DNA from: an uncultured Candidatus Saccharibacteria bacterium
Lineage (GTDB): Bacteria > Patescibacteriota > Minisyncoccia > Ryanbacterales > HO2-45-13
Length of the DNA stretch: 64,000 nucleotides
Assembly (NCBI GenBank): GCA_964354975.1
Contig: CAYHBS010000002.1
Span: forward strand, 16,088 to 80,087
Direction: 5' to 3'
The notes under the pieces are model-generated. The model was not told where the DNA came from. It saw only the letters and a program-made list of their open reading frames with translations, and ran no database searches. Positions 1-27,007 of the stretch are shown in pieces. The number at the start of each line of letters is the position of its first letter. Position 1 is the first letter of the stretch. Made by a program: the position numbers and the translations under genes.

Positions 1-1
1 T

Positions 2-250
2 CGACTCGAGATCGATCCGCGCGCCGGACAGCTGTTTGTCTTCTGCAATGCCCGGCACAACCGACTCAAGATCCTTCAGTTCGATTCGTCCGGCGTTTGG
101 GTCGCGGCCAAGCGGCTCGAGAAAGGGACGTTTCGTTGGCCCGAGTCTCGCGATCGCACGATCGTGCTGAGCTACGAAGAGATGGTGATGATCGTGGGCG
201 GACTCGATGCGACGAGCACGCGTCGACGTCGCTGGTATGGTCGTGGATAA
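2..250 (+). pseudogene. tnpB: IS66 family Orf2 (TnpB) 3' fragment, truncated by the window start
   Basis: The translation RLEIDPRAGQLFVFCNARHNRLKILQFDSSGVWVAAKRLEKGTFRWPESRDRTIVLSYEEMVMIVGGLDATSTRRRRW matches the conserved IS66 Orf2 C-terminal region. The stop codon is at 248-250. Confidence 0.6.
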
Positions 251-299
251 CTCGTGCATTGCCGAGCGCGCGCGTATTGACCGAGTACGCGTCGTCCTC

Positions 300-494
300 G
301 GGCTGCGAGTCCTTGCTCTGATGCTCGGCCAGCTCGGCCGCCGCGGCAGCGAGCGCTTCGTCGAGCAGTTTGGCGAAATCCAAGCGCAGCTGCTCGGGGC
401 TCACCTGCTCGGAGCGCCGCCCGTACAGTCGTCGTAGCAGCGCCGAGGGCGGACGCAGAGCGGCCGTGCTGTACTCGCTGGTGGTCAGCTGCAA
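300..494 (-). pseudogene. IS66 transposase N-terminal-like fragment, inverted relative to the other pieces
   Basis: The minus-strand translation ...ALLRRLYGRRSEQVSPEQLRLDFAKLLDEALAAAAAELAE matches the N-terminal motif of IS66 transposases. Downstream similarity is lost. Confidence 0.35.
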
Positions 495-642
495 GCGACT
501 CGGGATCGATCCCTACGCCTACCTGCGCGACGTGATCGCCACGGTGGCAACCTATCCGAACAAGCGCATCGGCGAGCTCACGCCGAGGGCGTGGGCCGCG
601 GCGCGCGAACCTCGGAGCGAGACCCGCGTCGCTTCGGCATAG
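370..642 (+). pseudogene. IS66 family transposase (TnpC) C-terminal fragment
   Basis: The ORF ends with LYSLVVSCKRLGIDPYAYLRDVIATVATYPNKRIGELTPRAWAAA, characteristic of IS66 TnpC C-termini. The upstream about 400 residues of a normal TnpC are missing. Confidence 0.5.
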
Positions 643-783
643 CCGGCCTTACCGGTCTCAAGCCTTATCGGCAGTTGGTCGAACGCTTACGTTCCTCCGG
701 TGTGACCGTGAACAGTGCGGTCTGATCTCGTTGTACTCCCGTCGCCAGCTCTCGATCACGACCTTCGCTTCCTTCTGTGAATC

Positions 784-824
784 GGCTTCCAACTTTGACC
801 CCTTTCGGCGCGCGATTTTGCACG
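784..824. repeat. About 40-bp direct repeat copy 1 (ttccaacTttgacccctttcggcgcgcGatTttg)
   Basis: Near-identical to 2331-2371. The reverse complement contains GGGGTCAAG twice, spaced about 23 bp apart. Confidence 0.6.
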
Positions 825-880
825 GAACCGGACATTTCTACTTTGCGATGACAGCGCTGGGTTGACTCCACTACCCGGCC

Positions 881-1219
881 TTACGGAGGCACGGGCCGGC
901 TGCGCTGCTGCAGCCACTCCAGGAGCGGACCCAGCCCATCGGGTACAGACATCTCGTCGAACTCGAACCGGCGCACGTCCACACCGGTGTGGAGTTCGAG
1001 TTCGTACACGATCTGATCCCTCGCTGAAGAGGACCGCGCGGCAGACACGTCTGATCTCGCGCTGCTTGCAAAGCGCTCGATGGCGAGACGATGTGCGGCG
1101 ACCAGCTCCTCCGCTGCGACATCGCAACCGCGCGAGAGGTTCGCAAAGCCGCCAGACTGCCGGAAATGGATCTGCCGCAGGCTCATATCAAAAACCGACG
1201 GCCTTCCATGCCTTCGCAA
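881..1219 (-). CDS. Hypothetical 112-aa protein co-oriented and overlapping (32 nt) with the M4 protease gene; candidate protease-partner (emfourin-like inhibitor?)
   Basis: ORF directly downstream of the protealysin-like protease on the same strand, with overlapping stop and start. No recognisable catalytic motif. The partner role is inferred from the known bicistronic protealysin-inhibitor arrangement. Confidence 0.35.
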   Translation of the reverse strand: MRRHGRPSVFDMSLRQIHFRQSGGFANLSRGCDVAAEELVAAHRLAIERFASSARSDVSAARSSSARDQIVYELELHTGVDVRRFEFDEMSVPDGLGPLLEWLQQRSRPVPP

Positions 1220-2225
1220 CAGCTTTCTCTTCGGTCGTGCCCATGGCCGCGGCCATCCGCGTGCTCATCGCAACCATCTCGGCGAAATCGCTTTGCTTAT
1301 TCAGCGCCAGCAACGTCTGGTACCAGATTGCTCCGGCCCTGACCCACGCGTTGCCACCGAGCGCCGTCGCCGTGAGGAAGAACGCGTGATTGGGGATGCC
1401 CGAGTTGATGTGCACGCCACCCGAATCTGCAGGGCCTGTGTACTTGTCACACAAGTGCTTCGGTTGAGGGTCGGTCCCTAGATTCGGATCGTTCTCGTAA
1501 GCCTTCCCCTCTTTGAACGTCCGCAGCGACTTGGCCGTCGTGCCCGGACCCATGATGTCGGGGCCGATAAGCCAGTCAGCCTTCGTGGCCGTCTGCTTCC
1601 TTTTCCACTGCTTGACGAGGGTCCCGAAAACGTCAGCAAAATGTTCGTTGAGCGCGCCCGACTCGTCCCGATAGTCCAGGTTCGACGTGTGGCTCACCAC
1701 GCCATGCGTCAGTTCGTGACCCACTACGTCCATCGACCGCGTGAACCGATTGAAAATAACGCCGTCCCCATCGCCATACGCCATCTGCTCGCCGTTCCAG
1801 AACGCGTTGTTGTACTTGTTTCCGAGGTGCACACTTGAGATGAGTGACATTCCGCGGTCATCAAGTGAATTACGGTTGAGCACCTTTTTATAGAAGTCGT
1901 AGGTCGCGCCCGAGTAGTCGTACGCTTCGTTCACGGCGGGATCTGTAGATTTGTTGTCACCCTCGCTGCGCACAAGCTTGCCGGGCAAAAGCGACGAGCC
2001 CTGCTTCTGCATGTCGTAGATCAGCCGATCCTTCTTGGCCCCTGGCGACGGTACCGCGGCCATCATCGCGAACTGCGAAAGCGCGGTGCGCGTTGCGCGC
2101 AACGACGCGGATCGGGCGATGGCCTCGATCGCCAGCTTACGCACTGCCGGGATCGGTGACTCGGCCATCTTGTCTAGTACGTACGGCGGGAGGATGCAGT
2201 GAATAGGCTTGCGTCCGCAGCTCAT
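1188..2225 (-). CDS. M4 (thermolysin-family) zinc metalloprotease, protealysin-like subfamily
   Basis: HEXXH motif (VVGHELTHGV) plus downstream NEHFADVFG glutamate, typical of M4 peptidases. There is no signal peptide, and the short N-terminal propeptide carries the PPL-type motif (CILPPYVLDKM). A strong SD (AAAGGAG) lies 8 nt upstream of the ATG at 2225. Confidence 0.85.
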   Translation of the reverse strand: MSCGRKPIHCILPPYVLDKMAESPIPAVRKLAIEAIARSASLRATRTALSQFAMMAAVPSPGAKKDRLIYDMQKQGSSLLPGKLVRSEGDNKSTDPAVNEAYDYSGATYDFYKKVLNRNSLDDRGMSLISSVHLGNKYNNAFWNGEQMAYGDGDGVIFNRFTRSMDVVGHELTHGVVSHTSNLDYRDESGALNEHFADVFGTLVKQWKRKQTATKADWLIGPDIMGPGTTAKSLRTFKEGKAYENDPNLGTDPQPKHLCDKYTGPADSGGVHINSGIPNHAFFLTATALGGNAWVRAGAIWYQTLLALNKQSDFAEMVAMSTRMAAAMGTTEEKAVAKAWKAVGF

Positions 2226-2330
2226 GCTTATCTCCTTTATGATGTCTTACGCGTGTTCTCCGTCTTCGCTCTGCAGCGATTGGTCATTTTGTATCCGCCC
2301 ACCGAACCTGATGCCATTACGGTGTGGCTC

Positions 2331-2371
2331 AGCTTCCAACCTTGACCCCTTTCGGCGCGCAATCTTGACCC
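2331..2371. repeat. About 40-bp direct repeat copy 2 (ttccaacCttgacccctttcggcgcgcAatCttg), about 100 bp upstream of the protease start
   Basis: Matches 784-824 with 3 mismatches. The two copies bracket the protease/partner gene pair. Confidence 0.6.
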
Positions 2372-2720
2372 CACCCGGTGCTTGAGATCCTCAGTAACCA
2401 CGCTCGGTTGCACGGGCATGGTCGGGGTCACGCTTGGACGCCGATACGGGGTCACACGGCACGCCTCGGGACGCGAGGTAGTGCCGCTCGGCCCCGCGCT
2501 CGACGACTTCTCGCCGGCGCGTGTAGCGCTCTCGGGATCGCTGGATGATCTCGGCGCTGTAAGGCGCTGCAGGGGTAGGGTGGCAGAGAGTCCGGCCACT
2601 GAACGGCGCGGACGTTCGTCCGTTCACGGCAAGCCGGAGATAGATGTCGTGGTGATCGAGCCCGGTCAGATCATCAGTGCACACGCTGATCCTTACAAGA
2701 TTTCACCGCATGCGTTCTCG

Positions 2721-3110
2721 TCAGTCGTACGTAGCCACCGTGGGTGAGAATCCGCGACCGCAAGTGTCGCATTTTTCATGAACGTCGACGTAGCCAGAGG
2801 CATTGCGCTCTGCCAGTTGGGATACAAGCGTCCCCGAGCAGGGTGGCGGACATTTCCGAACCCGCCAGTGATCACCGCACATCGTGCAGAGATACGAAGT
2901 GCCAACTTCGTCTGGGCTCGACTCGATTTCGTGGTTTTCACATGTAGGACAGCACTGAACTACTTTCATCTCTTCCCTCTGTGCCAACGGCTCGCCGAGT
3001 TTGTTGATCGAGGATACCACATGTATCCGCGGAATAGTGGCGGAGCCCACCGGACGACGGCGGGGGACAGATGCCGAGTGGCAACTGAGCGACCGTCGTT
3101 TACCGCTCAA
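2721..3110 (-). CDS. Cys-rich putative zinc-ribbon protein (4 CxxC-type motifs)
   Basis: Contains CCPTC, CTMCG, CPPPC and CDTCG. It overlaps the upstream MBL gene by 11 nt, which suggests operon coupling. Confidence 0.4.
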   Translation of the reverse strand: MSGKRRSLSCHSASVPRRRPVGSATIPRIHVVSSINKLGEPLAQREEMKVVQCCPTCENHEIESSPDEVGTSYLCTMCGDHWRVRKCPPPCSGTLVSQLAERNASGYVDVHEKCDTCGRGFSPTVATYD

Positions 3111-4206
3111 TCACGGCGTCGTAGCGCCCGTCGGTCGTTGCCTGGATGCGCACAGTGCCGTCCCATCCCGTCGCCAGGATCGCTTTCTCTACCTGAACCG
3201 GTGAGAAATCGCGGACGCCGTTTGCGACCAATACGGTTTTCTTCGTCGCCCGCTCGGTAGCGATTGATTGAGTCAACAGGTCAACGGTGACCCGTCGAGG
3301 GTGCCCAAACTGCCACCCTGTGAATTTCTCTTGTGGATGCGAGCGGCCGTATTCCGCGTCCTCCATTGAAATTACGGCGATCGCAGGCGTCATCGCCTCG
3401 AGCAGCTTCCTCGTAGTCCCGTTATACGATCCATGATGCCCGACATGGTAGACGTCGACGTCGAGCGTCGTTGTCCCCCTGTACCAATCGAGCAACGTGC
3501 CGATCGCGTATTCCTCGAGATCGCCCGTGAACAGAAAGGATGACTCCCCGTAGTCGACACGCGTTACGAGGCTATGGTTGTTCTTGTTCGCCCATTCGCC
3601 TTGTGGCCATCCGGGATTGTCATCCATCCGGCCTGACAGAATACGAATCCGCGGGTTCACATCGCCACAATCGATCGGGTCGATGATGTCATCCGTTAGC
3701 CCTGTGCGCGTGGGAAGTCTGGTGATTTCGGAGTCGGCGACCTGGCGCGTCTCGATGTGGAGTGTTTCGGCGTTGTTCCTCACCCAGTTGGGCTCCCCAG
3801 TTCCCGTGCCGGTGCTCTGGCCGGAGTCGATAAAACGTTCCACCGTAAATGATTCGACAATCTCCCGCAGTGCCCGGGTATGGTCGATGTGGTTGTGCGT
3901 GATGATGATGGCGTCGAGCGTGTGGTGAAGTGCGGTGTGAAGAGGATCATCGAAGAAGGCTTGTAAATAGGCCACGAGTGCGTCGGCTTTCTCTTGATCC
4001 CTCGCGCCGGCGTCGATCAACACCGCTCCGCACGGGAACTCGAGGAGCGTGGCATCCGCTTGGCCTACGTCGATGAAATGCGCCACCATCGGCGCCGTTT
4101 CAGCAGCAGCAAAGCGCACTGAAAGCGCGAGAGCGCCGACAGCACAACAAACGCGGTAGGCGAGCCTGCGAGTCACAAAACACTGAACGGGCATAACAAA
4201 CTCCAC
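3100..4206 (-). CDS. Secreted metallo-beta-lactamase-fold hydrolase, ComEC/Rec2-type MBL domain
   Basis: N-terminal signal-peptide-like segment. MBL HxHxDH motif (ITHNHIDHT) and a downstream HVGHHGS motif, typical of ComEC C-terminal-like MBL domains. Confidence 0.7.
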   Translation of the reverse strand: MEFVMPVQCFVTRRLAYRVCCAVGALALSVRFAAAETAPMVAHFIDVGQADATLLEFPCGAVLIDAGARDQEKADALVAYLQAFFDDPLHTALHHTLDAIIITHNHIDHTRALREIVESFTVERFIDSGQSTGTGTGEPNWVRNNAETLHIETRQVADSEITRLPTRTGLTDDIIDPIDCGDVNPRIRILSGRMDDNPGWPQGEWANKNNHSLVTRVDYGESSFLFTGDLEEYAIGTLLDWYRGTTTLDVDVYHVGHHGSYNGTTRKLLEAMTPAIAVISMEDAEYGRSHPQEKFTGWQFGHPRRVTVDLLTQSIATERATKKTVLVANGVRDFSPVQVEKAILATGWDGTVRIQATTDGRYDAVIER

Positions 4207-4390
4207 ATCCCCGAAACGACGACACGGATTGTGCCGTGCCTATCTCGGGCGAAGCAATAGGGGATTCCCCTTACGACGCGGACAGCCCTGGACAGAACGG
4301 CTGAAACCGTCGTATTAAACGGCGGCTCGAGGGGGCAGTCGACGTCGGCACACTTGACGCGACGTACCTACTGCGCACACAAGACAGACA

Positions 4391-5683
4391 ATGTACGACC
4401 TGGGGCTTGCACTGTCGGGTGGCGGCTCTCGTGCCGCCGCCTTCCACGCTGGAACGCTCAGGGCGATAGCCGATCTCCATCTCGTCGAGCGAATCGATGT
4501 TGTCTCGACGGTCTCTGGCGGGTCGTTGTTCGGGGGCGCCTGGCTCGCGGCGCGCGCCAGGGGTGAGTCAGAAGACGCATTCCTGGCAAGCATGAAGACG
4601 GAGCTCGAGAGAGGTTTCATCCTACGTTCGCTTCGCCCCTCGCTGGCGAAAACGTTCCTCCCGTGGCTCGAATACACCCGGACGCACGTGATCGGCGACA
4701 CGTTCGACCGGATTTTCCTTAAAGGCTTGACGCTCTCTGGCTTGCCCGAGCGCCCGGCGCTATGCCTGAACACGTCAATCCTCAACAACGGCCAGGTAGG
4801 GAAGTTCTCGCGTGAGGGATTTTCTGCTTGGGGCCTAAAAGTGCCCGGCGCAACGCCTGAGCATGTCGTCCCGTGGCACAACTTCCCGGTCGCGTACGCA
4901 GTGGCTGCCTCTGCGGCATTCCCGGTTGGACTACCGCCGCTTCGGCTGGGCCACGGACGATTTCCGTCCGGTACACGCTTCACGGAGGGACTTGCGGGTT
5001 CGAAACACCTTTTCCTAACCGATGGCGGCGTGCTGGAGAATCTAGGGATTCAGACGCTCCTGCGATCCGGCCGGTTCGCGGCTTGGGATCTTATCGTCAG
5101 TGACGCTGGCACAGCAGATACACGGTGGAGTCTCGTGCCAGGATGGTCGACAGTAAAGGGCCTAGGTATCTGGATTGCGAGTGGGCGGATCTTGGACCGA
5201 CTCATGATCGTGATGAACAACAAACAGAATCGGTGGGCTCGTCAGGAGGTGATCGACCAACTTGAATCCTCGTGGTTCGCAGCGGCTCTCCGTGACGGCC
5301 TAAAGACACCTGCCATCGATACTCTGCTGCGCACTCATCCCGTCCGGGCTCGGAGAAAGCTCATCTTCGCTCGCGTGAATCAGACCCGAAAATCTTTTGT
5401 CACTGGCATACCGAGACATCGGCTCGCAGAACTCGCCGATGGCAACGAGCGTGACGTCCCTGGGTCAGATGACTACGGGGGGTTATGTGACTTTCTACGC
5501 GCCGCGGGAGTGCATCTGGAGCAGGCGGACACATACTACGGTCAACTCGGCGATGACACGCAGGCGCTCGCAATGAATGAGGTGAAGACAAACTTCACCG
5601 CGTTACCAACGCAAGTCGTTGAACAACTGTCAAACCACGCTGCGTGGCAGGTGCACGCATGCGCGGCTGTGTACGGTGGATGA
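4391..5683 (+). CDS. Patatin-like phospholipase
   Basis: Oxyanion hole GGGSRAAAFHAG, nucleophile elbow G-x-S-x-G (TVSGGS) and catalytic Asp in the DGG motif (LTDGGVLENLG). Confidence 0.8.
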   Translation: MYDLGLALSGGGSRAAAFHAGTLRAIADLHLVERIDVVSTVSGGSLFGGAWLAARARGESEDAFLASMKTELERGFILRSLRPSLAKTFLPWLEYTRTHVIGDTFDRIFLKGLTLSGLPERPALCLNTSILNNGQVGKFSREGFSAWGLKVPGATPEHVVPWHNFPVAYAVAASAAFPVGLPPLRLGHGRFPSGTRFTEGLAGSKHLFLTDGGVLENLGIQTLLRSGRFAAWDLIVSDAGTADTRWSLVPGWSTVKGLGIWIASGRILDRLMIVMNNKQNRWARQEVIDQLESSWFAAALRDGLKTPAIDTLLRTHPVRARRKLIFARVNQTRKSFVTGIPRHRLAELADGNERDVPGSDDYGGLCDFLRAAGVHLEQADTYYGQLGDDTQALAMNEVKTNFTALPTQVVEQLSNHAAWQVHACAAVYGG

Positions 5684-5720
5684 GCAAAGAGGCTCACATC
5701 GATAGGTCGGGTGCCAAGGT

Positions 5721-6365
5721 ATGAAAATTGAAGAGATCGGGCCGTGGATACTGTTGTTTGTAGGCGCGCTGTTACTGCTGGGCGGTGCTTCTCTTGCCGC
5801 CCGAAAGCGTGGCAGTGTCCCAATGATCACCATCCTACTGATCTTTGGCCTCGGAACTGCGGGCATTGGCGTGTATGGCCCAACCTTTTTGGATCGATAC
5901 CAGCTGCTCAAAACGGTGGGGCCGTTGATTGGTTCACCGAGCCACGAGAGCTACAATGCGTTCCTCTCCGGTGTAGCGAGGGGGGACGTCGGACCGCTCG
6001 AGCGAGAACTTGGCCTGTCCTACATCTTGCAGCGGCCGATCGACGGGACAGAAGAGCTACTTCAGGCAGCGACGGCAAAGGCGGAACAAGATGACGCCCG
6101 AGTCGCTCTCAGCGCCGCAGGACAATGGCTCGAGGGGCGCCAGCGGGTAGCGGCTGTCTTGGCGGCCGATCTGATGCCGTCCAACCATACCGCGCGTCTT
6201 AGCGAGGAACAAGTCAAATTATTTGACCCGGCAACCCGCACCTTGATTATTCGCGATCTCGAGAAGCACGACGGGCGGCGACTCGCGACTGACCCGGGCG
6301 TCGTTGCACGGCTGAAGCACACAACACCTGATTTTCTGGAGCCAGGTCCAGTCATAGATCGGTGA
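5721..6365 (+). CDS. Membrane protein (two N-terminal TM helices), hypothetical
   Basis: Hydrophobic N-terminus (WILLFVGALLLLGGASLAA, ITILLIFGLGTAGIGVY). High-GC codon usage like the upstream genes. Confidence 0.4.
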   Translation: MKIEEIGPWILLFVGALLLLGGASLAARKRGSVPMITILLIFGLGTAGIGVYGPTFLDRYQLLKTVGPLIGSPSHESYNAFLSGVARGDVGPLERELGLSYILQRPIDGTEELLQAATAKAEQDDARVALSAAGQWLEGRQRVAAVLAADLMPSNHTARLSEEQVKLFDPATRTLIIRDLEKHDGRRLATDPGVVARLKHTTPDFLEPGPVIDR

Positions 6366-6535
6366 GCATACGGCGTTTCTGTGCGCCATTTTTTTTCGCC
6401 AATGACTCACAGCACATTGAGAAAGCCTCCGGAAAATCCGGGGCGATTCAAGAAAGCGTCAAGGATCATCTACGGTTGCCTCGCACGCCAACATCTCCAT
6501 CCTTCACGCTTCCTTCGCTCTTTCTATACTGGAGC

Positions 6536-6700
6536 ATGGAACTGACAGACGAAGATATCGTCGAGTATCAAGTGATGTGGAAAGAGGAATTCGGAGAAGA
6601 GATTAGCACAGCAGACGCGCGGCGCAGTGCGAGTGAACTCTTGGAGCTCTTCCGTGTGCTCTTCTTCGAGTCATCATCAGTCGAGCAGGAGGAAGAGTAA
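6536..6700 (+). CDS. Small acidic hypothetical protein (54 aa), speculative
   Basis: ATG-initiated sub-ORF of the 6362-6700 frame (MELTDEDIVEYQVMWKEEFGEE...). It lies at the GC-composition transition and has no clear SD. Confidence 0.2.
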   Translation: MELTDEDIVEYQVMWKEEFGEEISTADARRSASELLELFRVLFFESSSVEQEEE

Positions 6701-6837
6701 CAGGTCACGCGGCTTCTCGTAACGATTCATTCATGAGATCGTGAAGATTCTTTAGTTCGTCCTCATTCGCTGCATTCGCGCAAAAAGTTCGAACGTCCTC
6801 TACATAGCTCCACAGACATAGAATAGTATGGAAGAAT

Positions 6838-6880
6838 AAAAAAACAGCTCTCATTCGCATAAGCGTCCGAGAGCTGTTTA
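6838..6880 (-). terminator. Rho-independent terminator for the 6894-7661 gene
   Basis: 10-bp stem (CAGCTCTC.../...GAGAGCTG) followed on the minus strand by a T-run, immediately downstream of the minus-strand stop at 6894. Confidence 0.6.
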
Positions 6881-6893
6881 CTAACGTTAAATT

Positions 6894-7661
6894 TCAAGCA
6901 AGGAGCTGTAAGGCCTTGGCGAGATATTCTCCCGCCATGCACCAATTAATTGGATCGAGAGCGCTTCCGCTGGGGCGAAGCTGACCCTGTGCATCAATGC
7001 TCAAATCAGGGAACTCTGCAACAAGTGGCGCGACCAACTGAATCGTTTTCGGCCCGAGACCGCCGGCGGCGCCGATCCCGAACATTGGGAAACTCTCCCT
7101 GATCGCTCGCGCAAATGGGATGAGACCGTCGGCGTCCATGCCGAGACCCTTTCCCATACTTTTGTCGAGTAATACCCGGTGAATCACGCCTTCGTAGTTG
7201 CCGAGACGCTCGACGACTCTCCGTGGATCATTGTCGACTTCCTCCAGTGCGTTCTTGCCAATCTGGAGGACAATTTCAATCTGCTTGCGTGAAGTGCGAA
7301 CTCCGCGTGCAATCTCGCCAGGATCCGGCCAGATCATATCGAGCTGAAGAGCGTGGATACCGATACCTCCGTAGGAAATCGCAGTTGCGAGACTTTTCCA
7401 AAGATCGGGGTTGTTGTCATAATCCACGTAGTGCAGACAGTTGTATACTTCGTCCAAGGAGAAAATGCTCGCGATACGATCTTTTGGCGGAAAAGCGTTT
7501 TGCCACTTGCTCGGAATGCCGTGGAGTGTCTTATGACTCATCATGATGCCGACATGCAACACCCTGTTCGATTCATGCGATCGATGAGCGTTGAATACTC
7601 GTAACATTTCTTGAACTTGTCCGAAATCCGTGAAGTCGGTAATGCCGATGTATGGATTCAT
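6894..7661 (-). CDS. TIM-barrel protein resembling phosphoribosylanthranilate isomerase (TrpF-like)
   Basis: N-terminal YIGITDF (compare KICGIT), LLDKSMGKGLGMDADGL (compare LLDS..GGTG..FDW) and AAGGLGP...SIDAQGQL (compare AGGL.P.NV...GVDVSSG). It is an orphan, with no other trp genes nearby. Confidence 0.4.
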   Translation of the reverse strand: MNPYIGITDFTDFGQVQEMLRVFNAHRSHESNRVLHVGIMMSHKTLHGIPSKWQNAFPPKDRIASIFSLDEVYNCLHYVDYDNNPDLWKSLATAISYGGIGIHALQLDMIWPDPGEIARGVRTSRKQIEIVLQIGKNALEEVDNDPRRVVERLGNYEGVIHRVLLDKSMGKGLGMDADGLIPFARAIRESFPMFGIGAAGGLGPKTIQLVAPLVAEFPDLSIDAQGQLRPSGSALDPINWCMAGEYLAKALQLLA

Positions 7662-8089
7662 TTATAGCACCCTTTGTAAAGATTTTGGTTTCCAAAAACA
7701 CATTACATTTTTTGACGCGAATAAGCAACAATTCACCAGGTTCTAACTTCTTCCACGTATCTTATCTGGACAACCCCCGTATCAAATGTTTTTGTACATT
7801 CTTGCAAACCGTTTATATATGCCATACATCGACTTCTTTTCCCACAGACCACGTTGTATGTGCCCCCGCTCCTCTACTGAAATATGCTTGTATGTCATCA
7901 CCCTTTCAGATTACAGGGCGGTGCACTTACTTGTTGAACTTACTGTTTTTGCTATTGACAATATAATTGATAATGTGTATAATATATAGGTATAATTCCT
8001 ATTCGAATGGATAGGTCGTTCCGTGATGGGTCAGGTGGTTAGAATCCTGCCACAACATAGGATTCACAGCACATTGGATTCACAACACA

Positions 8090-8608
8090 TTGAGAAGGAG
8101 GTGCCGTATGGCACGCCAAAACGTAGAGTTCGCTATTGTCCAAGGACCCTCGAAGCTCGATCTGATGCTCTCTCTGTTCGACACTAACATGGGGGTGCGG
8201 ACGGTGAGTTTTCTGACGGCCAAGGGTGAAAACCAACCGGGTTTCTCCTACAACGTCCATATCATCTCCGTGAGGAGAGGACATCCCAGCGCAAAGATCT
8301 GGGAAATCGAGGGGCTCACAGAAACCCAAAACGGGAAGAAGAGGGTCTTGATCTACTACCTCTCGGACACGCGCGAAGGTCACATGAGAATCGAAGAGAA
8401 TCTTCGGACCAAAGGAATCATTGAAACGCCCAACAACTCTCGGAAAGCGGGTGCTCTCCTCGAAATCATCTTCAGGATGATTAACAGGTATCGGGAAAGT
8501 CATTCCGGCAACCTGGACGAAGAGATCTTCAATTTTTTCGAGAAGGCGAAGCGAGTTTACTACGCCAAGGACCGCTATTTCCTCACCAGGGCGATCAAGA
8601 ATATCTGA
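8090..8608 (+). CDS. Hypothetical protein (172 aa)
   Basis: Strong SD (GAAGGAGGTG) 6 nt upstream of the ATG. A terminator hairpin follows. No recognisable motifs. Confidence 0.5.
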   Translation: MRRRCRMARQNVEFAIVQGPSKLDLMLSLFDTNMGVRTVSFLTAKGENQPGFSYNVHIISVRRGHPSAKIWEIEGLTETQNGKKRVLIYYLSDTREGHMRIEENLRTKGIIETPNNSRKAGALLEIIFRMINRYRESHSGNLDEEIFNFFEKAKRVYYAKDRYFLTRAIKNI

Positions 8609-8626
8609 GGTCAAGAACCTCAACCA

Positions 8627-8670
8627 GGGCCCCTCGTGGAAGAAATTCCGCGTGGGGCTCTCACTTTTTA
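8627..8670 (+). terminator. Rho-independent terminator after the 8090-8608 gene
   Basis: GC-rich imperfect hairpin (GGGCCCCTCGTGG...CCGCGTGGGGCTC) followed by CTTTTTATATTT. Confidence 0.5.
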
Positions 8671-9253
8671 TATTTGTAATTTGTTGATATAATTCCATAA
8701 AGAATTTAAGAATTTGCCGCCAAAGCAGTAAATTCAACATCAATCTTCATCATTGAATCCGACAATTTGGATCTTTTGACTTTCTTGCTCATTCGACGCC
8801 TCCAAATCCCTGCCTCAATATATTAAAGAGAATTACTGCCGCAACTACAGACTCACGCTACACATAAGACAATATATCATTGGAATTTTATAAAAAGAGA
8901 ACCGTTTCACGTGCAACACCACAAATGATTACCCATAATCACTCGTACATATCAAGACTCTCTTAGATTTAGTATGTCGCACAAATAATATGTGAAACAC
9001 TCAAAACTATTACAATATTGATATTATAGACAATGTCGCTAAAGAAGATCCGAAGTTACGCCTAATACCAACAGTCAGTAGGCGGAAATAATAAGGAGGT
9101 TATGGTTTCACGTGAAATACACAGCTACTGTGGATAACTTGTGTGTTAAAATATAAAGGCCAGTGTCCCTGACCTTAAATGTCTTGTAGGATAAGGACAT
9201 ATGGCCTTGACCCTTGTGTGTATGAACCGTGGATAACTATTGATATTATGAGC

Positions 9254-9790
9254 CTTCAAAAGGACGTTGGTGAGGTAGGAGAGGATATTGTCCGATTGTT
9301 TCTCATGAAACAAGGGCATTCTATCGTCGCAAAAAACGCTCTTGGATATGGCTTTGAAATTGATATTGTTTCACGATATCATGGTTGCTTCTATTTTATC
9401 GAGGTAAAAAGTGTTTCCCATGAAACATATAGTCCCGGCTATTACGCCAGCGACAGATCGCGCTTACTTGTATGGCTTGGCAATGTTGCCAGAGGAGGAT
9501 GGAGAATACTTTCCGAGGGGAAAAAGAGTCGAAAGATTTTATTCTGGAATATCAATGAGACTGGGGAATCTTCTTCTGAAACGCAGATCGAGGAGTGGAA
9601 TAATTTGCTCGCTGGCGCGGCTGACCGAGTGAATTCGCTGAAATTGTTACATGTGAAACGAGGGATTGAGATTCTGACTCATAAGGGTCTCGTCCCGGAT
9701 GATGCCGAGCTGTCTTTTGAGGTGATAACGGTCATGCTCGATTTCTTTAGAAAAACCGCTATAATACAGCGCATTCCTTGTGAACTCTGA
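9254..9790 (+). CDS. YraN/UPF0102-family (PD-(D/E)xK) endonuclease-like protein with about 80-aa C-terminal extension
   Basis: MSLQKDVGEVGEDIVRLFLMKQGHSIVAKNALGYGFEIDIVSRYHGCFYFIEVKS matches the YraN family pattern (GE..A..YL...G..IL.RN.R...GEIDL.A.....L.FVEVK). The upstream in-frame extension to 9179 is probably not translated. Confidence 0.55.
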   Translation, partial: LQKDVGEVGEDIVRLFLMKQGHSIVAKNALGYGFEIDIVSRYHGCFYFIEVKSVSHETYSPGYYASDRSRLLVWLGNVARGGWRILSEGKKSRKILFWNINETGESSSETQIEEWNNLLAGAADRVNSLKLLHVKRGIEILTHKGLVPDDAELSFEVITVMLDFFRKTAIIQRIPCEL

Positions 9791-9852
9791 TGTTTCATGT
9801 GAAACGCGGAGGCTCTGATATTGGAGCTTTTAGCTGATAGGGGAAATACCAG

Positions 9853-10036
9853 CTTACTGTGACTCTCGGGCTGTCGGCCGTACTTCTATGAGATAAATTA
9901 AGGAAGTCGGCACCACCCGTATTGAGAATATCATCACCTTACGGTGATTATCGGGCTGTCGGCCGCACTTCTAAGAGATAAGCTATTGAAGTCGGCACCA
10001 CTTGTATTGAAAGTATCGTCACCTCGCGGTGACTAA
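9853..10036 (+). repeat. Tandem repeat of about 85 bp (two full units plus a third that continues into tRNA-Pro); each unit begins with a copy of the tRNA-Pro 5' leader and first 10 nt (cgggctgtcg) and ends in a GGTGA/TCACC hairpin
   Basis: Unit A 9853-9937 and unit B 9938-10022 are about 85% identical over their full length. The third unit (10023-) diverges into the authentic tRNA at 10037. Confidence 0.7.
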
Positions 10037-10107
10037 CGGGCTGTCGTATACCGGTAGTACGCATGTTTTGGGAACATGTAGACTGGGTTCAATTCCCAGC
10101 AGCCCGA
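10037..10107 (+). tRNA. tRNA-Pro (anticodon TGG), CCA not encoded
   Basis: Manual fold: acceptor CGGGCTG/CAGCCCG, D-arm GTAT-ACCGGTA-GTAC, anticodon stem CATGT/ACATG with loop TTTGGGA (U33, anticodon UGG, G37), T-arm CTGGG-TTCAATT-CCCAG, discriminator A followed by CCG. Confidence 0.8.
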
Positions 10108-10109
10108 CC

Positions 10110-10234
10110 GGTTTTTGGAGGGAAGCAGGAGGCAAACTGCTTTGCCTCTGTTGGGAATTGAAGGGCGAGCGATGTGCGAAGCACCGCAAAGCCCCGGCCG
10201 AGCTGATGGAGCGAGGAAGACCAGCAGCCCGACC
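10110..10234 (+). ncRNA. tRNA-linked structured element copy 1 (hairpin GAGGCAAAG/CTTTGCCTC, hairpin GTGCgaaGCAC, then a duplicate of the tRNA-Pro 3' end CCAGCAGCCCGACC)
   Basis: About 75% identical to the element after the second tRNA-Pro. The first hairpin shows compensatory changes between copies (GAGGCAAA/TTTGCCTC versus CAGGTAAA/TTTACCTG). Confidence 0.4.
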
Positions 10235-10269
10235 AGTAATCGTGAAGAAAGAATGCCTATTTTAATGTG

Positions 10270-10340
10270 CGGGACGTCGTATACCGGTAGTACATACGAT
10301 TCGGGTTCGTATAGACTGGGTTCGATTCCCAGCGTCCCGA
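10270..10340 (+). tRNA. tRNA-Pro (anticodon CGG), CCA not encoded
   Basis: Acceptor CGGGACG/CGTCCCG, same D-arm as the first tRNA-Pro, anticodon stem TACGA/TCGTA with loop TTCGGGT (anticodon CGG), T-arm CTGGG-TTCGATT-CCCAG, discriminator A. Confidence 0.8.
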
Positions 10341-10342
10341 CT

Positions 10343-10480
10343 GAACGAAGTGAAGGAGGTGCAGCAGGTAAACTACTTTACCTGCGTTGGGAATCGAAGG
10401 GCGAGCGATGTGCGTAGCACCGCATAGCCCCGGCCGAGCAGATAAAGCGAGGGATTCCCAGCCTGCCCACTTTGTGGGCG
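10343..10480 (+). ncRNA. tRNA-linked structured element copy 2 (hairpin CAGGTAAAG/CTTTACCTG, hairpin GTGCgtaGCAC, terminal hairpin GCCCACtttGTGGGC)
   Basis: Paralogous to 10110-10234 with covarying stem positions. Confidence 0.4.
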
Positions 10481-10563
10481 GCCCGAATGAATAAACAAAA
10501 GAGTGCGAAAAAAGTAAACTGATGCGTCTGCATTTGGATTGAATAACTCGGTATTTTTTTGAA

Positions 10564-10592
10564 TAAAAAAAGGAGTGCTGGTTAGGCACTCC
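10564..10592 (-). terminator. Rho-independent terminator for the 10607-10978 gene
   Basis: On the minus strand, hairpin GGAGTGCctaaccaGCACTCC followed by TTTTTTTT, immediately downstream of the stop. Confidence 0.65.
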
Positions 10593-10606
10593 AAGGTTCT
10601 GAAGCA

Positions 10607-10978
10607 CTACTCAAGTGTCGGCACCCTTTCGATTATATAGTCATTATTGAAACAATCTCCGCGATACACTTCGGTGCGAATCTTGTAGGGCAGCTTAGCC
10701 CTCCTAAATCTTTGATTGAGACTGCCAATTATGCCACCCGTGCTAAAACCATCAAACATTGTTTGGCCATGCGCTCTTCCTTTCCCATTTCGAAGTGCTA
10801 CAAGGAGTCCGGTAGTTTTTCCCTGAAATGCAAGGGTTGTGAAAATATTCTCCCAATCTTTGTGTGTTAAAGAAGGGGGATTTTCGTCGGTTTCAATGTT
10901 TGTTGTCGAGATTGTTTCCCAAGTTGCTTTGCCTTTTGCGTCTCGTGATTGTTGTTGGATCGTGATGCGGAGCAACAT
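10607..10978 (-). CDS. Small basic protein, possibly a divergent ribosomal protein L19 homolog (tentative)
   Basis: LAFQGKTTGLLVALRNGKG and RFRRAKLPYKIRTE loosely parallel the L19 motifs AFEGVVIAIRNRG and RKAKLYYLRE. The similarity is weak. Confidence 0.35.
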   Translation of the reverse strand: MLLRITIQQQSRDAKGKATWETISTTNIETDENPPSLTHKDWENIFTTLAFQGKTTGLLVALRNGKGRAHGQTMFDGFSTGGIIGSLNQRFRRAKLPYKIRTEVYRGDCFNNDYIIERVPTLE

Positions 10979-11087
10979 AAGACCTCCTTTTTTCCTGGAA
11001 GACTCCTAGACGAAGGAAAGCAGAAAGCGCATGAGAAGTCAAATAGTTGCAGCAAAAGATATCCTAACGACGTAACAGTACTTACCA

Positions 11088-12551: not shown

Positions 12552-12826
12552 ATGTTGCGTATTTGTAATGCACCGCGCAGCATTTGCTTTAATGCATTCT
12601 TACCACGTGTGGTCTTAAAATATCCTTCACGTCACTTCGCATCATCTATGACGCTGTGTGCTTCATAATATATTAAAACAAACGGACGACGTGACTTGGT
12701 AGACTTTGACCCGCCATTCTTGTGCTCTTTCATTCTTCTCCGCAAATCCGATGAGTAACCGATATATAGCTTATTGTCCAAGAGACTTTTTAGGACATAG
12801 GTATAGTACATTCTCCTATTGTACAT
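12548..12826 (-). pseudogene. GIY-YIG nuclease-domain gene interrupted by an in-frame TGA (codon at 12630-12632) at a conserved Arg position
   Basis: The N-terminal 64 aa (YTYVLKSLLDNKLYIGYSSDLRRRMKEHKNG...RRPFVLIYYEAH) is classic GIY-YIG. After the TGA, the same frame continues as REGYFKTTRGKNALKQMLRGALQIRNI, matching the family C-terminus (KRREKYFKTTKGKKAL..ML). Its terminal TGA overlaps the cca ATG (ATGA coupling). Confidence 0.6.
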
Positions 12827-12905
12827 CGATCACATTATTGATTGGGAATTCATTGACCGTAAACCACGTTGGGTTCACGGCCATGAACTCCATGTAGTTC
12901 ATGGG

Positions 12906-12978
12906 TCCGCCCACTTGGATTCGAACCAAGGACCCACTGCTTAAGAGGCAGTTGCTCTACCAGCTGAGCTATAGGCGG
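12906..12978 (-). tRNA. tRNA-Lys (anticodon CTT), CCA not encoded
   Basis: Minus-strand fold: acceptor CCGCCTA/TGGGCGG, D-arm GCTC-AGCTGGTA-GAGC, anticodon stem ACTGC/GCAGT with loop CTCTTAA, T-arm CTTGG-TTCGAAT-CCAAG, discriminator A. Confidence 0.8.
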
Positions 12979-12984
12979 AAGATA

Positions 12985-13130
12985 TATGCACAAAAACATT
13001 AAATCATGAAAACACATGAACATTAAAGCACAAGAACACCAGAACATTAAAGCAAAAAAACATTAAATTATGAAAACACAAGAACATTAAATCACAAAAA
13101 CACGAAAACAAAAGAACACAAACAGTTTAT
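12985..13130. repeat. A-rich degenerate tandem repeat (aacattaaa[gt]ca... units, about 8 copies)
   Basis: Repeated acattaaa cores at irregular spacing of about 17-21 bp between tRNA-Lys and tRNA-Arg. Confidence 0.6.
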
Positions 13131-26946: not shown

Positions 26947-27007
26947 AAAACATTAGTGATTATGCACAAAACAAGTGCGTAATTACTAGTATCCGACTGC
27001 TATACTA

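What the first reader, a model, noticed from the sequence alone, without database searches (positions are those of the whole stretch)
1..6400. Abrupt compositional discontinuity: a high-GC block carrying an IS66 remnant and secreted hydrolases abuts a moderate-GC compact genome
Genes from 1 to about 6365 use strongly GC-biased codons (for example the start of the patatin gene, atgtacgacctggggcttgcactgtcgggtggcggc). Everything after about 6700 is visibly AT-richer. The block contains a scrambled IS66 element at its edge plus a protease, an MBL hydrolase, a patatin phospholipase, a Zn-ribbon protein and a membrane protein. Either this is a recently acquired accessory island from a high-GC donor, or the contig is an assembly chimera.
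Basis: seen in the sequence. Interest (0 to 1): 0.6.

Follow-up and report, generated by a model that had tools for sequence, protein, structure and literature searches.

The report
Foreign high-GC island in CPR bacterium
The GC jump is real: it is the right-hand end of a strain-specific block of foreign DNA, at least 25 kb long, in the chromosome of an ultra-small groundwater (Patescibacteria/CPR) bacterium, which is a good but not unprecedented example of horizontal gene transfer.

Summary
**Observation:** confirmed. GC falls from 0.60 to 0.48, with a maximum-likelihood change point near 6320. Mean GC3 is 0.63 in the block and 0.48 in the host (p = 3e-10).

**Chimera:** rejected. Eight independent contigs cross the GC step at 100% identity. 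Four of them (three samples, two assemblers) also cross the structural breakpoint.

**Extent:** the finding sees only the tip. High GC continues at least 17.9 kb left of window position 1, so the block is at least 24.7 kb and its left edge is unseen. The IS66 debris is internal, not at an edge.

**Host and boundary:**
- The host is a Patescibacteria MAG with dnaA, dnaN, polA and pnp in the window.
- Three sister-strain contigs, more than 99% identical, lose homology at exactly 6808/6809.
- At that site they carry an intact tRNA-Ala(CGC) and a ComEC gene at host-like GC.
- Mismatches to the sisters cluster within 240 nt of the breakpoint (P about 1e-14), which marks a homologous-recombination tract.

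**Cargo:** non-CPR in affinity.
- A protealysin-like M4 protease plus emfourin operon is about 81% identical in DNA to contigs of a kind labelled Acidobacteriota.
- A patatin is 55-59% identical to homologs labelled Myxococcota, Chloroflexota or Acidobacteriota.
- The rest is a ComEC-type MBL domain, IS66 fragments, a coupling-protein relic and many ORFans.

**Verdict:** a decayed, mosaic genomic island and a new member of a known kind. The integration mechanism is unresolved.

The parts
1..6808 (.). Visible right-hand part of the high-GC island. The island continues left of the window to at least position -17,933 on overlapping public contigs, so its total length is at least 24.7 kb.
   Evidence: GC profile and change point. 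Left extension on L013, L014, L022 and L024. Loss of homology with sister strains at 6808/6809.
1..250 (+). 3' part of an IS66-family tnpB (orf2) gene. The whole gene spans window -94 to 250.
   Evidence: PF05717 TnpB_IS66 on the called 114-aa gene. It is 42-45% identical to annotated IS66 TnpB proteins.
312..443 (-). Fragment of the N-terminal leucine-zipper region of an IS66 transposase, inverted relative to tnpB. The match is marginal.
   Evidence: PF13007 LZ_Tnp_IS66, E = 2e-4, 22.4 bits against a cutoff of 22.9, residues 18-61 of ORF 66-494 (-).
466..642 (+). C-terminal fragment of an IS66 transposase. The DDE core is missing.
   Evidence: PF13817 DDE_Tnp_IS66_C, E = 2e-11. No DDE_Tnp_IS66 domain was found anywhere in the block.
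776..831 (.). Copy 1 of a 56-nt imperfect direct repeat that brackets the M4-emfourin cassette.
   Evidence: the repeat finder family D1, 80% identity over 56 nt. The core at 785-813 versus 2332-2360 is 28/29 identical, and there are only two copies in the 82-kb composite.
881..1186 (-). Gene for an emfourin-family metalloprotease inhibitor, immediately downstream of the protease gene.
   Evidence: PF20242 Emfourin, E = 6.5e-13. It is 69% identical in protein to the ORF in the same position in L075 and L077.
1188..2225 (-). Protealysin-like M4 metalloprotease, with HELTH at residue 170, a PPYVL propeptide motif and no signal peptide.
   Evidence: Pfam Peptidase_M4 and Peptidase_M4_C. The best PDB match is 2VQX, full length, E = 8e-91. 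Homologs at 72-90% identity are labelled Vicinamibacterales or Thermoanaerobaculia.
2323..2378 (.). Copy 2 of the 56-nt direct repeat bracketing the M4-emfourin cassette.
2391..2702 (-). Probable relic of the C-terminal tail of a type IV secretion coupling protein (TrwB/VirD4-like).
   Evidence: 42% identity over 62 aa to residues 367-428 of L054:1923-3500 (-), which carries PF10412 and PF12696. The ORF itself has no Pfam hit.
2721..3110 (-). Cys-rich (zinc-ribbon-like) ORF that overlaps the stop codon of the MBL gene by 11 nt.
   Evidence: ORF list. CPTC, CTMC and CDTC pairs. No family hit. Whether it is a real gene is uncertain, because public gene calls differ here.
3100..4194 (-). Stand-alone ComEC-type metallo-beta-lactamase-fold hydrolase with a signal-peptide-like N-terminus and an HNHIDH motif.
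   Evidence: PF00753, E = 3e-14. TIGR00361 ComEC_Rec2 positions 419-633 of 663, E = 1e-22, below that model's cutoff. Motif.
4391..5683 (+). Patatin-like phospholipase with GGGSR, TVSGG and DGG motifs.
   Evidence: PF01734, E = 1e-19. Motifs. Nearest homologs are 55-59% identical and labelled Myxococcota, Chloroflexota, Haliangiales or Acidobacteriota.
5721..6365 (+). Membrane protein with two N-terminal hydrophobic helices and no known family. It is the last high-GC gene.
6366..6808 (+). Terminal 443 nt of the strain-specific segment, with host-like GC of 0.50. It contains a small acidic ORF (6362 or 6536 to 6700). Its origin is uncertain.
   Evidence: GC. It is absent from the sister strains. 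Gene calls give either 112 aa or 54 aa. There is no tRNA-like remnant at Rfam E <= 10.
6809..6812 (+). TCCA, the only part of the sister strains' tRNA-Ala(CGC) retained here. It corresponds to the tRNA's last 4 nt and marks the first base of shared host sequence.
   Evidence: Alignment at the breakpoint. ARAGORN finds tRNA-Ala(cgc) at L019 10849-10920 and L021 6714-6785.
6819..7047 (.). Island-linked divergent tract in host DNA. Ten of the 13 window-versus-L019 mismatches lie here. A further SNP at 7768 and a 1-nt indel at 7827 also separate the window from the sisters.
   Evidence: binomial P = 9e-15.
6894..7661 (-). First host gene: a conserved Patescibacteria protein of unknown function, 255 aa.
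   Evidence: 41 homologous loci in Patescibacteria species representatives, up to 84% identity. No Pfam hit.

Best explanation
Window 1-6808 is the right-hand end of a real, strain-variable genomic island of at least 24.7 kb in the chromosome of a groundwater Patescibacteria (CPR) bacterium.

**Position (shown).** The island ends at the site where sister strains have the 3' end of tRNA-Ala(CGC), downstream of comEC. That site is about 33 kb from dnaA.

**Composition and content (shown).** The island is foreign in composition (GC 0.59 against 0.48) and mosaic in content. It holds:
- a protealysin-like M4 protease plus emfourin inhibitor operon of Acidobacteriota type, bracketed by 56-nt direct repeats;
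- a patatin phospholipase;
- a stand-alone ComEC-type MBL hydrolase;
- a response regulator;
- many ORFans.

It looks like a decayed mobile element, with scrambled IS66 fragments and a relic of a type IV coupling protein.

**History (inferred).** The DNA originally came from one or more high-GC, non-CPR bacteria. It has been resident long enough to lose its mobility genes and to drift towards AT. It is now gained or lost within the CPR population by homologous recombination in the flanking host DNA, plausibly after natural transformation.

**Function (inferred, not tested).** The hydrolase cargo may act in cell-cell antagonism or host exploitation.
For: **The composition step is real:**

**The junction is real.**
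- Eight contigs from ENA (SPAdes-style names) and Logan assemblies of different Hainich groundwater samples cross 6365 at 100% identity (99.9% for L007).
- L001, L002, L004 and L007 also cross 6809, and L012 crosses it by 24 nt.
- Coverage of junction contigs (5.03 and 5.06) is close to that of block-only contigs from the same assemblies (4.51 and 4.31).

**Extent.** GC of 0.53-0.65 continues to -17,933. The upstream genes lie on the same 82,268-bp NCBI contig as the window's genes.

**The host is core CPR chromosome.**
- Proteins are labelled 'Patescibacteria group bacterium'.
- pnp, uvrB, uvrD, polA, PBP1 and the CCA enzyme are present, as are dnaA, dnaN and ruvB.

**Strain specificity.**
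- L019, L020 and L021 are 99.4-99.99% identical to window 6809-17464 and all break at 6809.
- Beyond that point they carry tRNA-Ala(CGC) and a ComEC 3' end at GC 0.48-0.49.
- In assembly H51_R1 the island-free contig has coverage 7, while block fragments have coverage 2-3.

**Recombination tract.** Ten of 13 mismatches lie within 240 nt of the breakpoint (P = 9e-15). L021 has a further private patch of 15 SNPs at 7125-7426.

**Foreign origin.**
- M4 homologs at 72-90% identity that carry an organism label are Vicinamibacterales or Thermoanaerobaculia.
- Their contigs have GC 0.65-0.69 and ordinary metabolic genes. DNA homology of 80.5-82% is confined to window 883-2239.
- Patatin relatives are labelled Myxococcota, Chloroflexota or Acidobacteriota, on contigs up to 1.59 Mb, and none is labelled Patescibacteria.
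- No block genes lie next to the 255-aa gene in 41 other CPR species.

**Decay and residence time.**
- IS66 fragments without a DDE core.
- A coupling-protein relic.
- M4 GC3 of 0.76 against 0.88-0.89 in its closest homologs, with 69 GC-to-AT against 25 AT-to-GC changes on the window branch.
Against: - The left boundary was never reached. It is therefore not shown that host DNA resumes on the other side, and insertion cannot be told apart from replacement or rearrangement.
- No integrase, no att-type direct repeat and no tRNA remnant beyond TCCA were found, so the original integration mechanism is unknown.
- Only two cargo genes could be placed taxonomically, and the organism labels are MAG annotations. 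Most block genes are ORFans of unknown origin.
- The AT-biased change in the M4 gene could reflect a lower-GC donor rather than amelioration, because the polarisation is crude.
- Coverage figures come from contig names at low depth (2-7x). Host-only contigs from the H52 assemblies were not retrieved.
- I had no reads, so read-pair support was not examined directly.
Confidence: 0.75

Rival explanations
1. Assembly or binning chimera: DNA of a high-GC organism was wrongly joined to a CPR contig.
For: - Depth is low, 2-7x.
- The high-GC part runs off the contig end, with no host DNA seen on its far side.
- The cargo's nearest relatives are in other phyla.
- Several Logan contigs end or start within about 35 nt of the breakpoint: L003 ends at 6783, L006 ends at 6774 and L012 starts at 6785.
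Against: - The same junction sequence was assembled independently in at least four assemblies of three samples by two different assemblers, at 100% identity. Eight contigs cross the GC step.
- No repeat at the junction could mislead a de Bruijn assembler.
- Junction and block-only contigs have similar coverage.
- The host DNA adjoining the junction has island-specific SNPs starting 10 nt from the breakpoint.
- The 25-kb block has no housekeeping genes and is ORFan-rich, unlike the donor-like chromosomal contigs L075 and L077.
Confidence: 0.04
2. An integrase-driven integrative element (ICE or IME) that targets the 3' end of tRNA-Ala(CGC). The intact tRNA, attL and the integrase would lie at the unseen left end.
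For: - The breakpoint coincides to within 4 nt with the 3' end of a tRNA gene in the empty-site strains. That is the classic target of tyrosine-recombinase islands.
- A coupling-protein relic suggests a conjugative past.
- The size, at least 24.7 kb, fits.
Against: - At the right end only TCCA is shared with the tRNA. There is no att-length repeat of the tRNA 3' part, no tRNA-like remnant at E <= 10 and no copy of the junction sequence elsewhere in the block.
- No integrase, relaxase or intact T4SS gene was found in 24.7 kb.
- The sister strains' tRNA-Ala and ComEC sequence is not present in the 17.9 kb seen to the left.
Confidence: 0.2
3. The block is ancestral to this population and the sister strains lost it. 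On this view the event to explain is a deletion or replacement in the sisters rather than a gain in the window strain.
For: - The haplotype pattern needs at least two recombination events under either polarity.
- The island is decayed and partly ameliorated, so it is not a fresh arrival.
- Both sister contigs end 551 and 679 nt beyond the breakpoint, inside comEC, so their far side is also unknown.
Against: - The sisters have an intact tRNA-Ala(CGC) and a comEC 3' end at host-like GC exactly at the site. That looks like an undisturbed empty site rather than a deletion scar.
- No other CPR species examined has block genes near this locus.
- This rival changes only the polarity of the last event, not the foreign origin of the block.
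Confidence: 0.2
4. Rearrangement: the high-GC block sits elsewhere in all strains, and an inversion or translocation with one endpoint at tRNA-Ala brought it next to position 6809 in the window strain.
For: - The left boundary is unseen.
- tRNA genes and IS fragments are common rearrangement endpoints.
- CPR gene order around this locus is not conserved between species.
Against: - In assembly H51_R1 the block fragments have coverage of only 2-3, against 7 for the sister-type contig. This argues that most cells there lack the block altogether.
- The island-linked divergent flank is better explained by import with flanking homology.
Confidence: 0.07

Closest known systems
Genomic islands in groundwater Patescibacteria (PMC12455944, mSystems 2025)
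   Same: That study found horizontally acquired regions in streamlined CPR genomes from aquifers by their compositional deviation. [quoted passage not shown]
   Different: - That study found most transfers to be CPR-to-CPR, and its donor table does not list Acidobacteriota.
- Here there is strain-level presence/absence at base-pair resolution, a tRNA-end boundary and a flanking recombination tract.
- Here the block is at least 24.7 kb and its identifiable cargo looks non-CPR.
Classical tRNA-associated genomic or pathogenicity islands (criteria recalled from my own knowledge of the field)
   Same: Deviant GC, absence from close relatives, a boundary at the 3' end of a tRNA gene, remnants of IS elements and conjugation genes, accessory hydrolase cargo, and a size in the 10-200 kb range.
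   Different: No flanking direct repeat or partial tRNA copy at the visible end, no integrase in the 24.7 kb seen, and the second boundary is not observed.
Protealysin-emfourin operon of Serratia proteamaculans (PDB 2VQX; PMC9505478 and its reference 13)
   Same: A bicistronic arrangement of an M4 protease, which has a short propeptide and no signal peptide, followed by an emfourin-family inhibitor gene. The protease matches 2VQX over its full length at E = 8e-91. The literature proposes that such pairs act like effector-immunity pairs.
   Different: Here the operon sits in a CPR genome on a foreign island. Its closest relatives are of the kind labelled Acidobacteriota. The inhibitor has no detectable match to any solved structure. 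No activity data exist.
IS66-family insertion sequences
   Same: A TnpB (orf2) homolog, plus N-terminal leucine-zipper and C-terminal fragments of the transposase.
   Different: The DDE catalytic core is missing and the fragments are in opposite orientations, so the element is dead and cannot explain present mobility.
ComEC/Rec2 DNA-uptake channel
   Same: The island's 364-aa protein matches the C-terminal MBL (nuclease-like) domain of ComEC and has the HxHxDH motif.
   Different: It lacks the Competence (PF03772) channel domain and scores far below the ComEC model cutoff (80 against 190 bits). It is a stand-alone, probably exported MBL hydrolase. The host's own comEC, seen in sister strains, ends after the Competence domain with no MBL domain.

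Membership tests
Genomic island (horizontally acquired accessory region) | Base composition and codon usage differ from the rest of the genome | tested here: met
   GC 0.586 against 0.484. 19 of 24 block 1-kb windows exceed the host maximum. GC3 is 0.63 against 0.48 (p = 3e-10). The tetranucleotide correlation with host segments is lower than between host segments.
Genomic island (horizontally acquired accessory region) | Present in some strains and absent from close relatives at the same locus | tested here: met
   L019, L020 and L021 are more than 99% identical in the flank and lack the block at 6809.
Genomic island (horizontally acquired accessory region) | Bounded on both sides by core genome | tested here: inconclusive
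   The right boundary is mapped to 6808/6809. The left boundary was not reached after 17.9 kb of extension.
Genomic island (horizontally acquired accessory region) | Adjacent to a tRNA gene | tested here: met
   In empty-site strains tRNA-Ala(CGC) ends 4 nt into the shared sequence at the breakpoint. In the window strain the tRNA itself was not seen.
Genomic island (horizontally acquired accessory region) | Flanking direct repeats (att sites) | tested here: not met
   There is no repeat of window 6760-6860 in the 24.7 kb seen and no tRNA-like remnant at the right end. The true left end is unseen, so a repeat there cannot be excluded.
Genomic island (horizontally acquired accessory region) | Mobility genes or their remnants | tested here: met
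   IS66 tnpB plus transposase fragments and a T4SS coupling-protein relic. No integrase was found.
Integrative conjugative or mobilisable element | Integrase, relaxase and (for ICEs) a type IV secretion module inside the element | tested here: not met
   Pfam annotations on called genes and my own scans show none in the 24.7 kb seen, apart from a 60-100-aa coupling-protein relic.
Prophage | Phage structural or replication gene families | tested here: not met
   PHROGs gave only receiver-domain and DUF6650-like hits of unknown function. There are no IMG/VR relatives for three block proteins.
Known plasmid | DNA or protein similarity to catalogued plasmids | tested here: not met
   Only the M4 gene matches PLSDB, at 64-70% nucleotide identity. 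The other 16 kb of block DNA and two ORFans have no match.
IS66 family insertion sequence (intact) | TnpB accessory protein | tested here: met
   PF05717 on the 114-aa gene at window -94 to 250. It is 42-45% identical to annotated TnpB proteins.
IS66 family insertion sequence (intact) | Full-length DDE transposase (TnpC) | tested here: not met
   Only a marginal leucine-zipper fragment on the minus strand and the 39-residue C-terminal element on the plus strand are present, within about 400 nt.
IS66 family insertion sequence (intact) | Terminal inverted repeats and 8-bp target duplication | not tested
   Not searched for specifically. The general repeat scan of 1-7200 shows no candidate.
Protealysin-like protease with emfourin operon | M4 catalytic and helical domains with the HExxH zinc site | tested here: met
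   PF01447 at 1e-33 and PF02868 at 2e-44. HELTH at residue 170.
Protealysin-like protease with emfourin operon | Protealysin-type precursor: short propeptide, no signal peptide, full-length similarity to protealysin | tested here: met
   Best PDB hit is 2VQX, residues 10-344 against 8-339, E = 8e-91. There is no hydrophobic N-terminus, and a PPYVL motif lies at residue 13. No dedicated signal-peptide predictor was run.
Protealysin-like protease with emfourin operon | Emfourin-family inhibitor gene directly downstream in the same orientation | tested here: met
   PF20242 at 6.5e-13. The gene at 881-1186 (-) starts 1 nt after the protease stop. The same pairing occurs in L075 and L077.
Protealysin-like protease with emfourin operon | Inhibition of the protease by the inhibitor | not testable with these tools
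   This needs biochemistry.
Patatin-like phospholipase | Patatin domain with oxyanion GGGxR/K, nucleophile GxSxG and catalytic DG[A/G] | tested here: met
   PF01734 at 1e-19. GGGSR at residue 10, TVSGG at residue 40 (Thr replaces the first Gly) and DGG at residue 211.
ComEC/Rec2 | Competence (PF03772) membrane channel domain | tested here: not met
   The island protein has only the MBL domain. Its TIGR00361 score is 80 bits against a cutoff of 190, matching model positions 419-633 only.
Anti-phage defence system | Match to a catalogued defence protein family and system architecture | tested here: not met
   PADLOC gave only generic MBL-fold hits for the MBL protein and none for the patatin, the membrane protein or the ORFans.

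The most novel reading that the evidence does not exclude
The island could be a host-interaction toolkit that an episymbiotic CPR cell captured from, or through, the bacteria it lives on.

- The toolkit would be an intracellular-type protease with its immunity-like inhibitor, a phospholipase and an exported ComEC-type nuclease-fold hydrolase.
- The Acidobacteriota-type affinity of the best-placed cargo would then point to the otherwise unknown host lineage.
- The island's position beside comEC, together with the flanking recombination tract, would show that blocks of foreign DNA 25 kb long circulate among CPR strains by natural transformation and homologous recombination.
Probability: 0.12. 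Interest if true: 0.6.

Novelty: new member of a known kind. Interest (0 to 1): 0.35.

Why it matters
CPR/Patescibacteria have tiny, streamlined genomes of about 1 Mb, and their hosts in groundwater are mostly unknown.

- A block of foreign DNA at least 25 kb long is a few percent of such a genome. If it is functional, it adds protease, phospholipase and nuclease-fold activities that could matter for an epibiotic lifestyle.
- The case is unusually well resolved for a metagenome. It has a base-pair breakpoint at a tRNA end, an empty site in co-occurring sister strains, and a recombination tract linked to the island. It could therefore serve as a worked example of how islands are gained and lost in uncultivated, naturally competent bacteria.
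- It also shows that a sharp GC step at the end of a MAG contig need not be contamination. That matters for automated MAG decontamination, which would probably trim this region.
- It does not reveal a new kind of element or mechanism.

Tried and rejected
1. **Searching with the sister strains' ComEC fragment to find the left junction.** Only three hits came back, all contig-end fragments, so one of the three homolog searches was largely wasted.
2. **Walking left** with emfourin, P0025, P0048 and P0042. This reached -17,933 but no boundary. The 82,268-bp NCBI contig is not in the look-up index.
3. **Host-only coverage in the H52 assemblies.** Similar places were collapsed, so the needed contig names were not shown.
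4. **Synteny in 41 other CPR species.** Gene order around the 255-aa gene is not conserved, so this says nothing about the ancestral state. Only L071 has a tRNA-Ala(CGC) nearby, and it lies on the other side of the gene.
5. **att-site search and tRNA remnant search.** Both were negative.
6. **Prophage, plasmid and defence-system readings.** PHROGs, PADLOC, PLSDB and IMG/VR all gave nothing.
7. **A conserved partner for the patatin.** The membrane protein is not found beside distant patatin homologs on L081 and L082.
8. **RNA structure in the 56-nt repeats flanking the M4 cassette.** Folding energies are no better than shuffled sequence.
9. **A degenerate tRNA at 6737-6808.** By eye the segment shares GCATTCGC and GTTCGA(A/T)C with the tRNA-Ala, but the spacing differs and Infernal finds nothing. 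I treat this as chance.

Full report
**1.

- GC in 1-kb windows is 0.57-0.64 across positions 1-6000 and 0.38-0.56 from 7001 to 64000.
- A single-change-point likelihood scan puts the step at about 6320, with GC 0.601 on the left and 0.484 on the right. The log-likelihood gain is about 157.
- The fall is complete within about 300 nt.
- Mean GC3 is 0.627 for block ORFs and 0.478 for host ORFs (Mann-Whitney p = 2.7e-10).
- Tetranucleotide z-score profiles correlate at 0.47-0.71 between host segments but only 0.27-0.51 between block and host.
It omits an emfourin gene and over-reads 'secreted'.

**2. It is not an assembly chimera**

- Exact look-ups of the genes on either side of the step returned contigs from separate assemblies of Hainich groundwater 0.1-µm-fraction samples. 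These were ENA assemblies of wells H52 and H51, and Logan assemblies of ERR38581xx and SRR326966xx runs.
- Eight contigs cross the GC step at 6365. L001, L002, L004 and L007 also cross 6809. All are 100% identical to the window, apart from two mismatches in L007.
- Contig-name coverages of junction contigs (5.03 and 5.06) are close to those of block-only contigs from the same assemblies (4.51 and 4.31).
- No repeat at the junction could mislead an assembler.

**3. The finding sees only the tip of the block**

- Overlapping contigs L013, L014, L022 and L024 extend the sequence 17,934 bases to the left of window position 1. GC stays at 0.53-0.65 throughout.
- The upstream genes are recorded on the same 82,268-bp NCBI contig as the window's genes. 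My composite is 81,934 bp, so the window appears to be the last 64 kb of that contig (inference).
- The block is therefore at least 24.7 kb. Its left edge was not reached, and the IS66 debris is internal rather than at an edge.

**4. The host**

- Window proteins are deposited as 'MAG... [Patescibacteria group bacterium]'.
- The moderate-GC part carries pnp, uvrB, uvrD, polA, a class A PBP, the CCA-adding enzyme and ksgA. It also carries dnaA, dnaN, ruvB and pilB.
- It is core chromosome. The probable origin of replication lies about 33 kb from the island edge.
- The first host gene (6894-7661, minus strand) is conserved in 41 Patescibacteria species representatives, at up to 84% identity. The labels on those MAGs are too inconsistent to assign a class.

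**5. A base-pair boundary from sister strains**

- Close variants of the 255-aa protein led to contigs L019 (58.5 kb, also in NCBI), L020 and L021.
- These are 99.4-99.99% identical to window 6809-17464, and all three lose homology at exactly 6808/6809.
- Beyond that point they carry an intact tRNA-Ala(CGC), with the G3:U70 pair read from the sequence, and the 3' end of a comEC gene. The GC there is host-like, 0.48-0.49.
- The window retains only the last four bases of the tRNA, TCCA.
- The structural boundary is therefore about 450-490 nt right of the compositional one. The intervening 6366-6808 segment has GC 0.50 and is of uncertain origin.
- The sisters' tRNA and comEC sequence does not occur anywhere in the 24.7 kb of block seen. 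There is also no att-like repeat and no tRNA remnant at the right end.
- In assembly H51_R1 the island-free contig has coverage 7 while block fragments have coverage 2-3. This fits a mixture of strains with and without the block.

**6. A recombination tract linked to the island**

- Of the 13 mismatches between the window and L019 over 10.7 kb, ten lie at 6819-7047, within 240 nt of the breakpoint (binomial P = 9e-15).
- A SNP at 7768 and a 1-nt indel at 7827 also separate the window from all sisters.
- L021 has a further private patch of 15 SNPs at 7125-7426.
- Elsewhere the strains are almost identical.
- The host DNA next to the island therefore has a separate, recombination-shaped history tied to island presence. 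This is independent evidence that the junction is biological.
- It also suggests the island is gained or lost by homologous recombination between CPR lineages (inference).
- The polarity, gain in the window strain or loss in the sisters, cannot be decided from three haplotypes.

**7. What the block carries and where it came from**

*M4 protease and emfourin.*
- The M4 protease (1188-2225, minus strand) matches the protealysin precursor 2VQX over its full length at E = 8e-91. It has HELTH and a PPYVL propeptide motif and lacks a hydrophobic N-terminus.
- The next gene is an emfourin-family inhibitor (PF20242). This is the protealysin-emfourin operon architecture described in Serratia and proposed to behave like an effector-immunity pair (PMC9505478).
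- Its homologs at 72-90% identity are numerous. Every one among the listed best matches that carries an organism label is Vicinamibacterales or Thermoanaerobaculia.
- On two such contigs (GC 0.67-0.69, ordinary metabolic neighbours), DNA homology to the window is 80.5-82% and stops at the operon's edges, window 883-2239.
- A 56-nt imperfect direct repeat, with a 28/29-identical core, brackets the cassette at 776-831 and 2323-2378.
- The window copy has GC3 0.76 against 0.88-0.89 in its closest homologs. It shows 69 GC-to-AT against 25 AT-to-GC changes at sites where the three homologs agree. This fits amelioration or a less GC-rich donor.

*Patatin.* It has the GGGSR, TVSGG and DGG motifs. Its nearest relatives are only 55-59% identical and are labelled Myxococcota, Chloroflexota, Haliangiales or Acidobacteriota, on contigs up to 1.59 Mb. 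None is labelled Patescibacteria.

*MBL protein.* It is a stand-alone ComEC-type MBL domain.

*Signs of decay.*
- The IS66 element is reduced to tnpB plus inverted N- and C-terminal transposase scraps.
- Window 2391-2702 looks like the C-terminal relic of a TrwB/VirD4-type coupling protein.

*The remainder.*
- It holds a receiver-domain protein, weak HNH, HAD, Mrr-like and H-lectin hits, DUF6650 and many ORFans.
- It has no phage, defence, plasmid or IMG/VR affinity.

**8. Best explanation and rivals**

- Best: a real, strain-variable, mosaic and decayed genomic island of non-CPR, high-GC origin at the tRNA-Ala/comEC locus, now exchanged or lost by homologous recombination (confidence 0.75).
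- Chimera: about 0.04.
- A still-organised tRNA-targeting integrative element, with its integrase at the unseen left end, is possible for the original insertion (about 0.2). It lacks an att repeat.
- Loss in the sisters rather than gain here (about 0.2) changes only the polarity of the last event.
- A rearrangement that moved a pre-existing block (about 0.07) is disfavoured by the coverage ratio in H51.

**9. Comparison with what is known, and novelty**

- Genomic islands and inter-phylum HGT have already been catalogued in groundwater Patescibacteria: hundreds of islands, up to 13% of genome length, mostly CPR-to-CPR (PMC12455944).
- This case meets the island criteria of deviant composition, strain specificity, tRNA adjacency, size and mobility-gene remnants.
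- It fails the flanking-repeat criterion at the visible end, and its second boundary is unobserved.
- It is a new member of a known kind. It is well resolved and fairly large for a genome of about 1 Mb, with an interesting cargo, but it is not a new mechanism.

**10. Limits**

- I had no reads, so pair support and depth were inferred from independent contigs and contig names.
- Taxonomic labels come from MAG annotations.
- Only two cargo genes were placed taxonomically.
- The left end and the integration mechanism remain unknown.

Noticed in passing
window 39500-42850: dnaA (40171-41550) and dnaN (41731-42843) sit beside an AT-rich dip (GC 0.38-0.43) and the minimum of cumulative GC skew. The chromosomal replication origin therefore appears to lie in this window, about 33 kb from the island edge.
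   Followed up: partly
window 776-831 and 2323-2378: A 56-nt imperfect direct repeat, with a 28/29-identical core, brackets the M4-emfourin cassette just outside the limits of its homology to the Acidobacteriota-type contigs (883-2239). There are only two copies in 82 kb and no special RNA fold. It suggests the cassette was inserted as a unit, by an unknown mechanism.
   Followed up: partly
window 2391-2702 (-): A small ORF in a local GC peak aligns at 42% identity over 62 aa with the C-terminal tail of a TrwB/VirD4-type coupling protein from a Liptonbacteria MAG (L054:1923-3500). It is probably a relic of a conjugation gene inside the island.
   Followed up: yes
L019 10854-11404 and L021 6719-7397 (sister strains); window 3100-4194: The sister strains' comEC ends after the Competence domain with no MBL domain, while the island next to that locus carries a stand-alone ComEC-type MBL protein on the opposite strand. 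This may be coincidence. Both sister contigs also stop inside comEC, 551 and 679 nt from the breakpoint.
   Followed up: no
window 9853-10350: An 85-nt tandem repeat (2.3 copies, 83% match) lies just upstream of two tRNA-Pro genes (TGG and CGG) that are themselves about 79% similar together with their flanks. L019 has roughly 196 extra bases between the two tRNAs, and two SPAdes contigs end at 9779 and 9788.
   Followed up: partly
window 27000-38400: A VirB4/TraG-type ATPase (33949-35757) is embedded in a run of large ORFs with no Pfam hits, at host-like GC. This may be a CPR type-IV-secretion-like cluster. It is conserved in close relatives at 90% identity or more.
   Followed up: no
window 15404-16318 (-): A XerC/XerD-like tyrosine recombinase gene is present in both the island-bearing and the island-free strains, so it is not island-specific.
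   Followed up: partly
composite about -16,086 to -16,700 (L083 and L085 ends; L024 versus L026): Two Logan contigs from different runs end at the same base inside the block. The neighbouring HAD-like gene is called as 190 aa in one assembly and 171 aa in another. This suggests a second strain-variable point within the island.
   Followed up: no
window 7125-7426: Sister contig L021 has a private patch of 15 SNPs (about 5%) inside the 255-aa gene that neither the window nor L019 shares. This is an independent recombination import at the same locus.
   Followed up: partly
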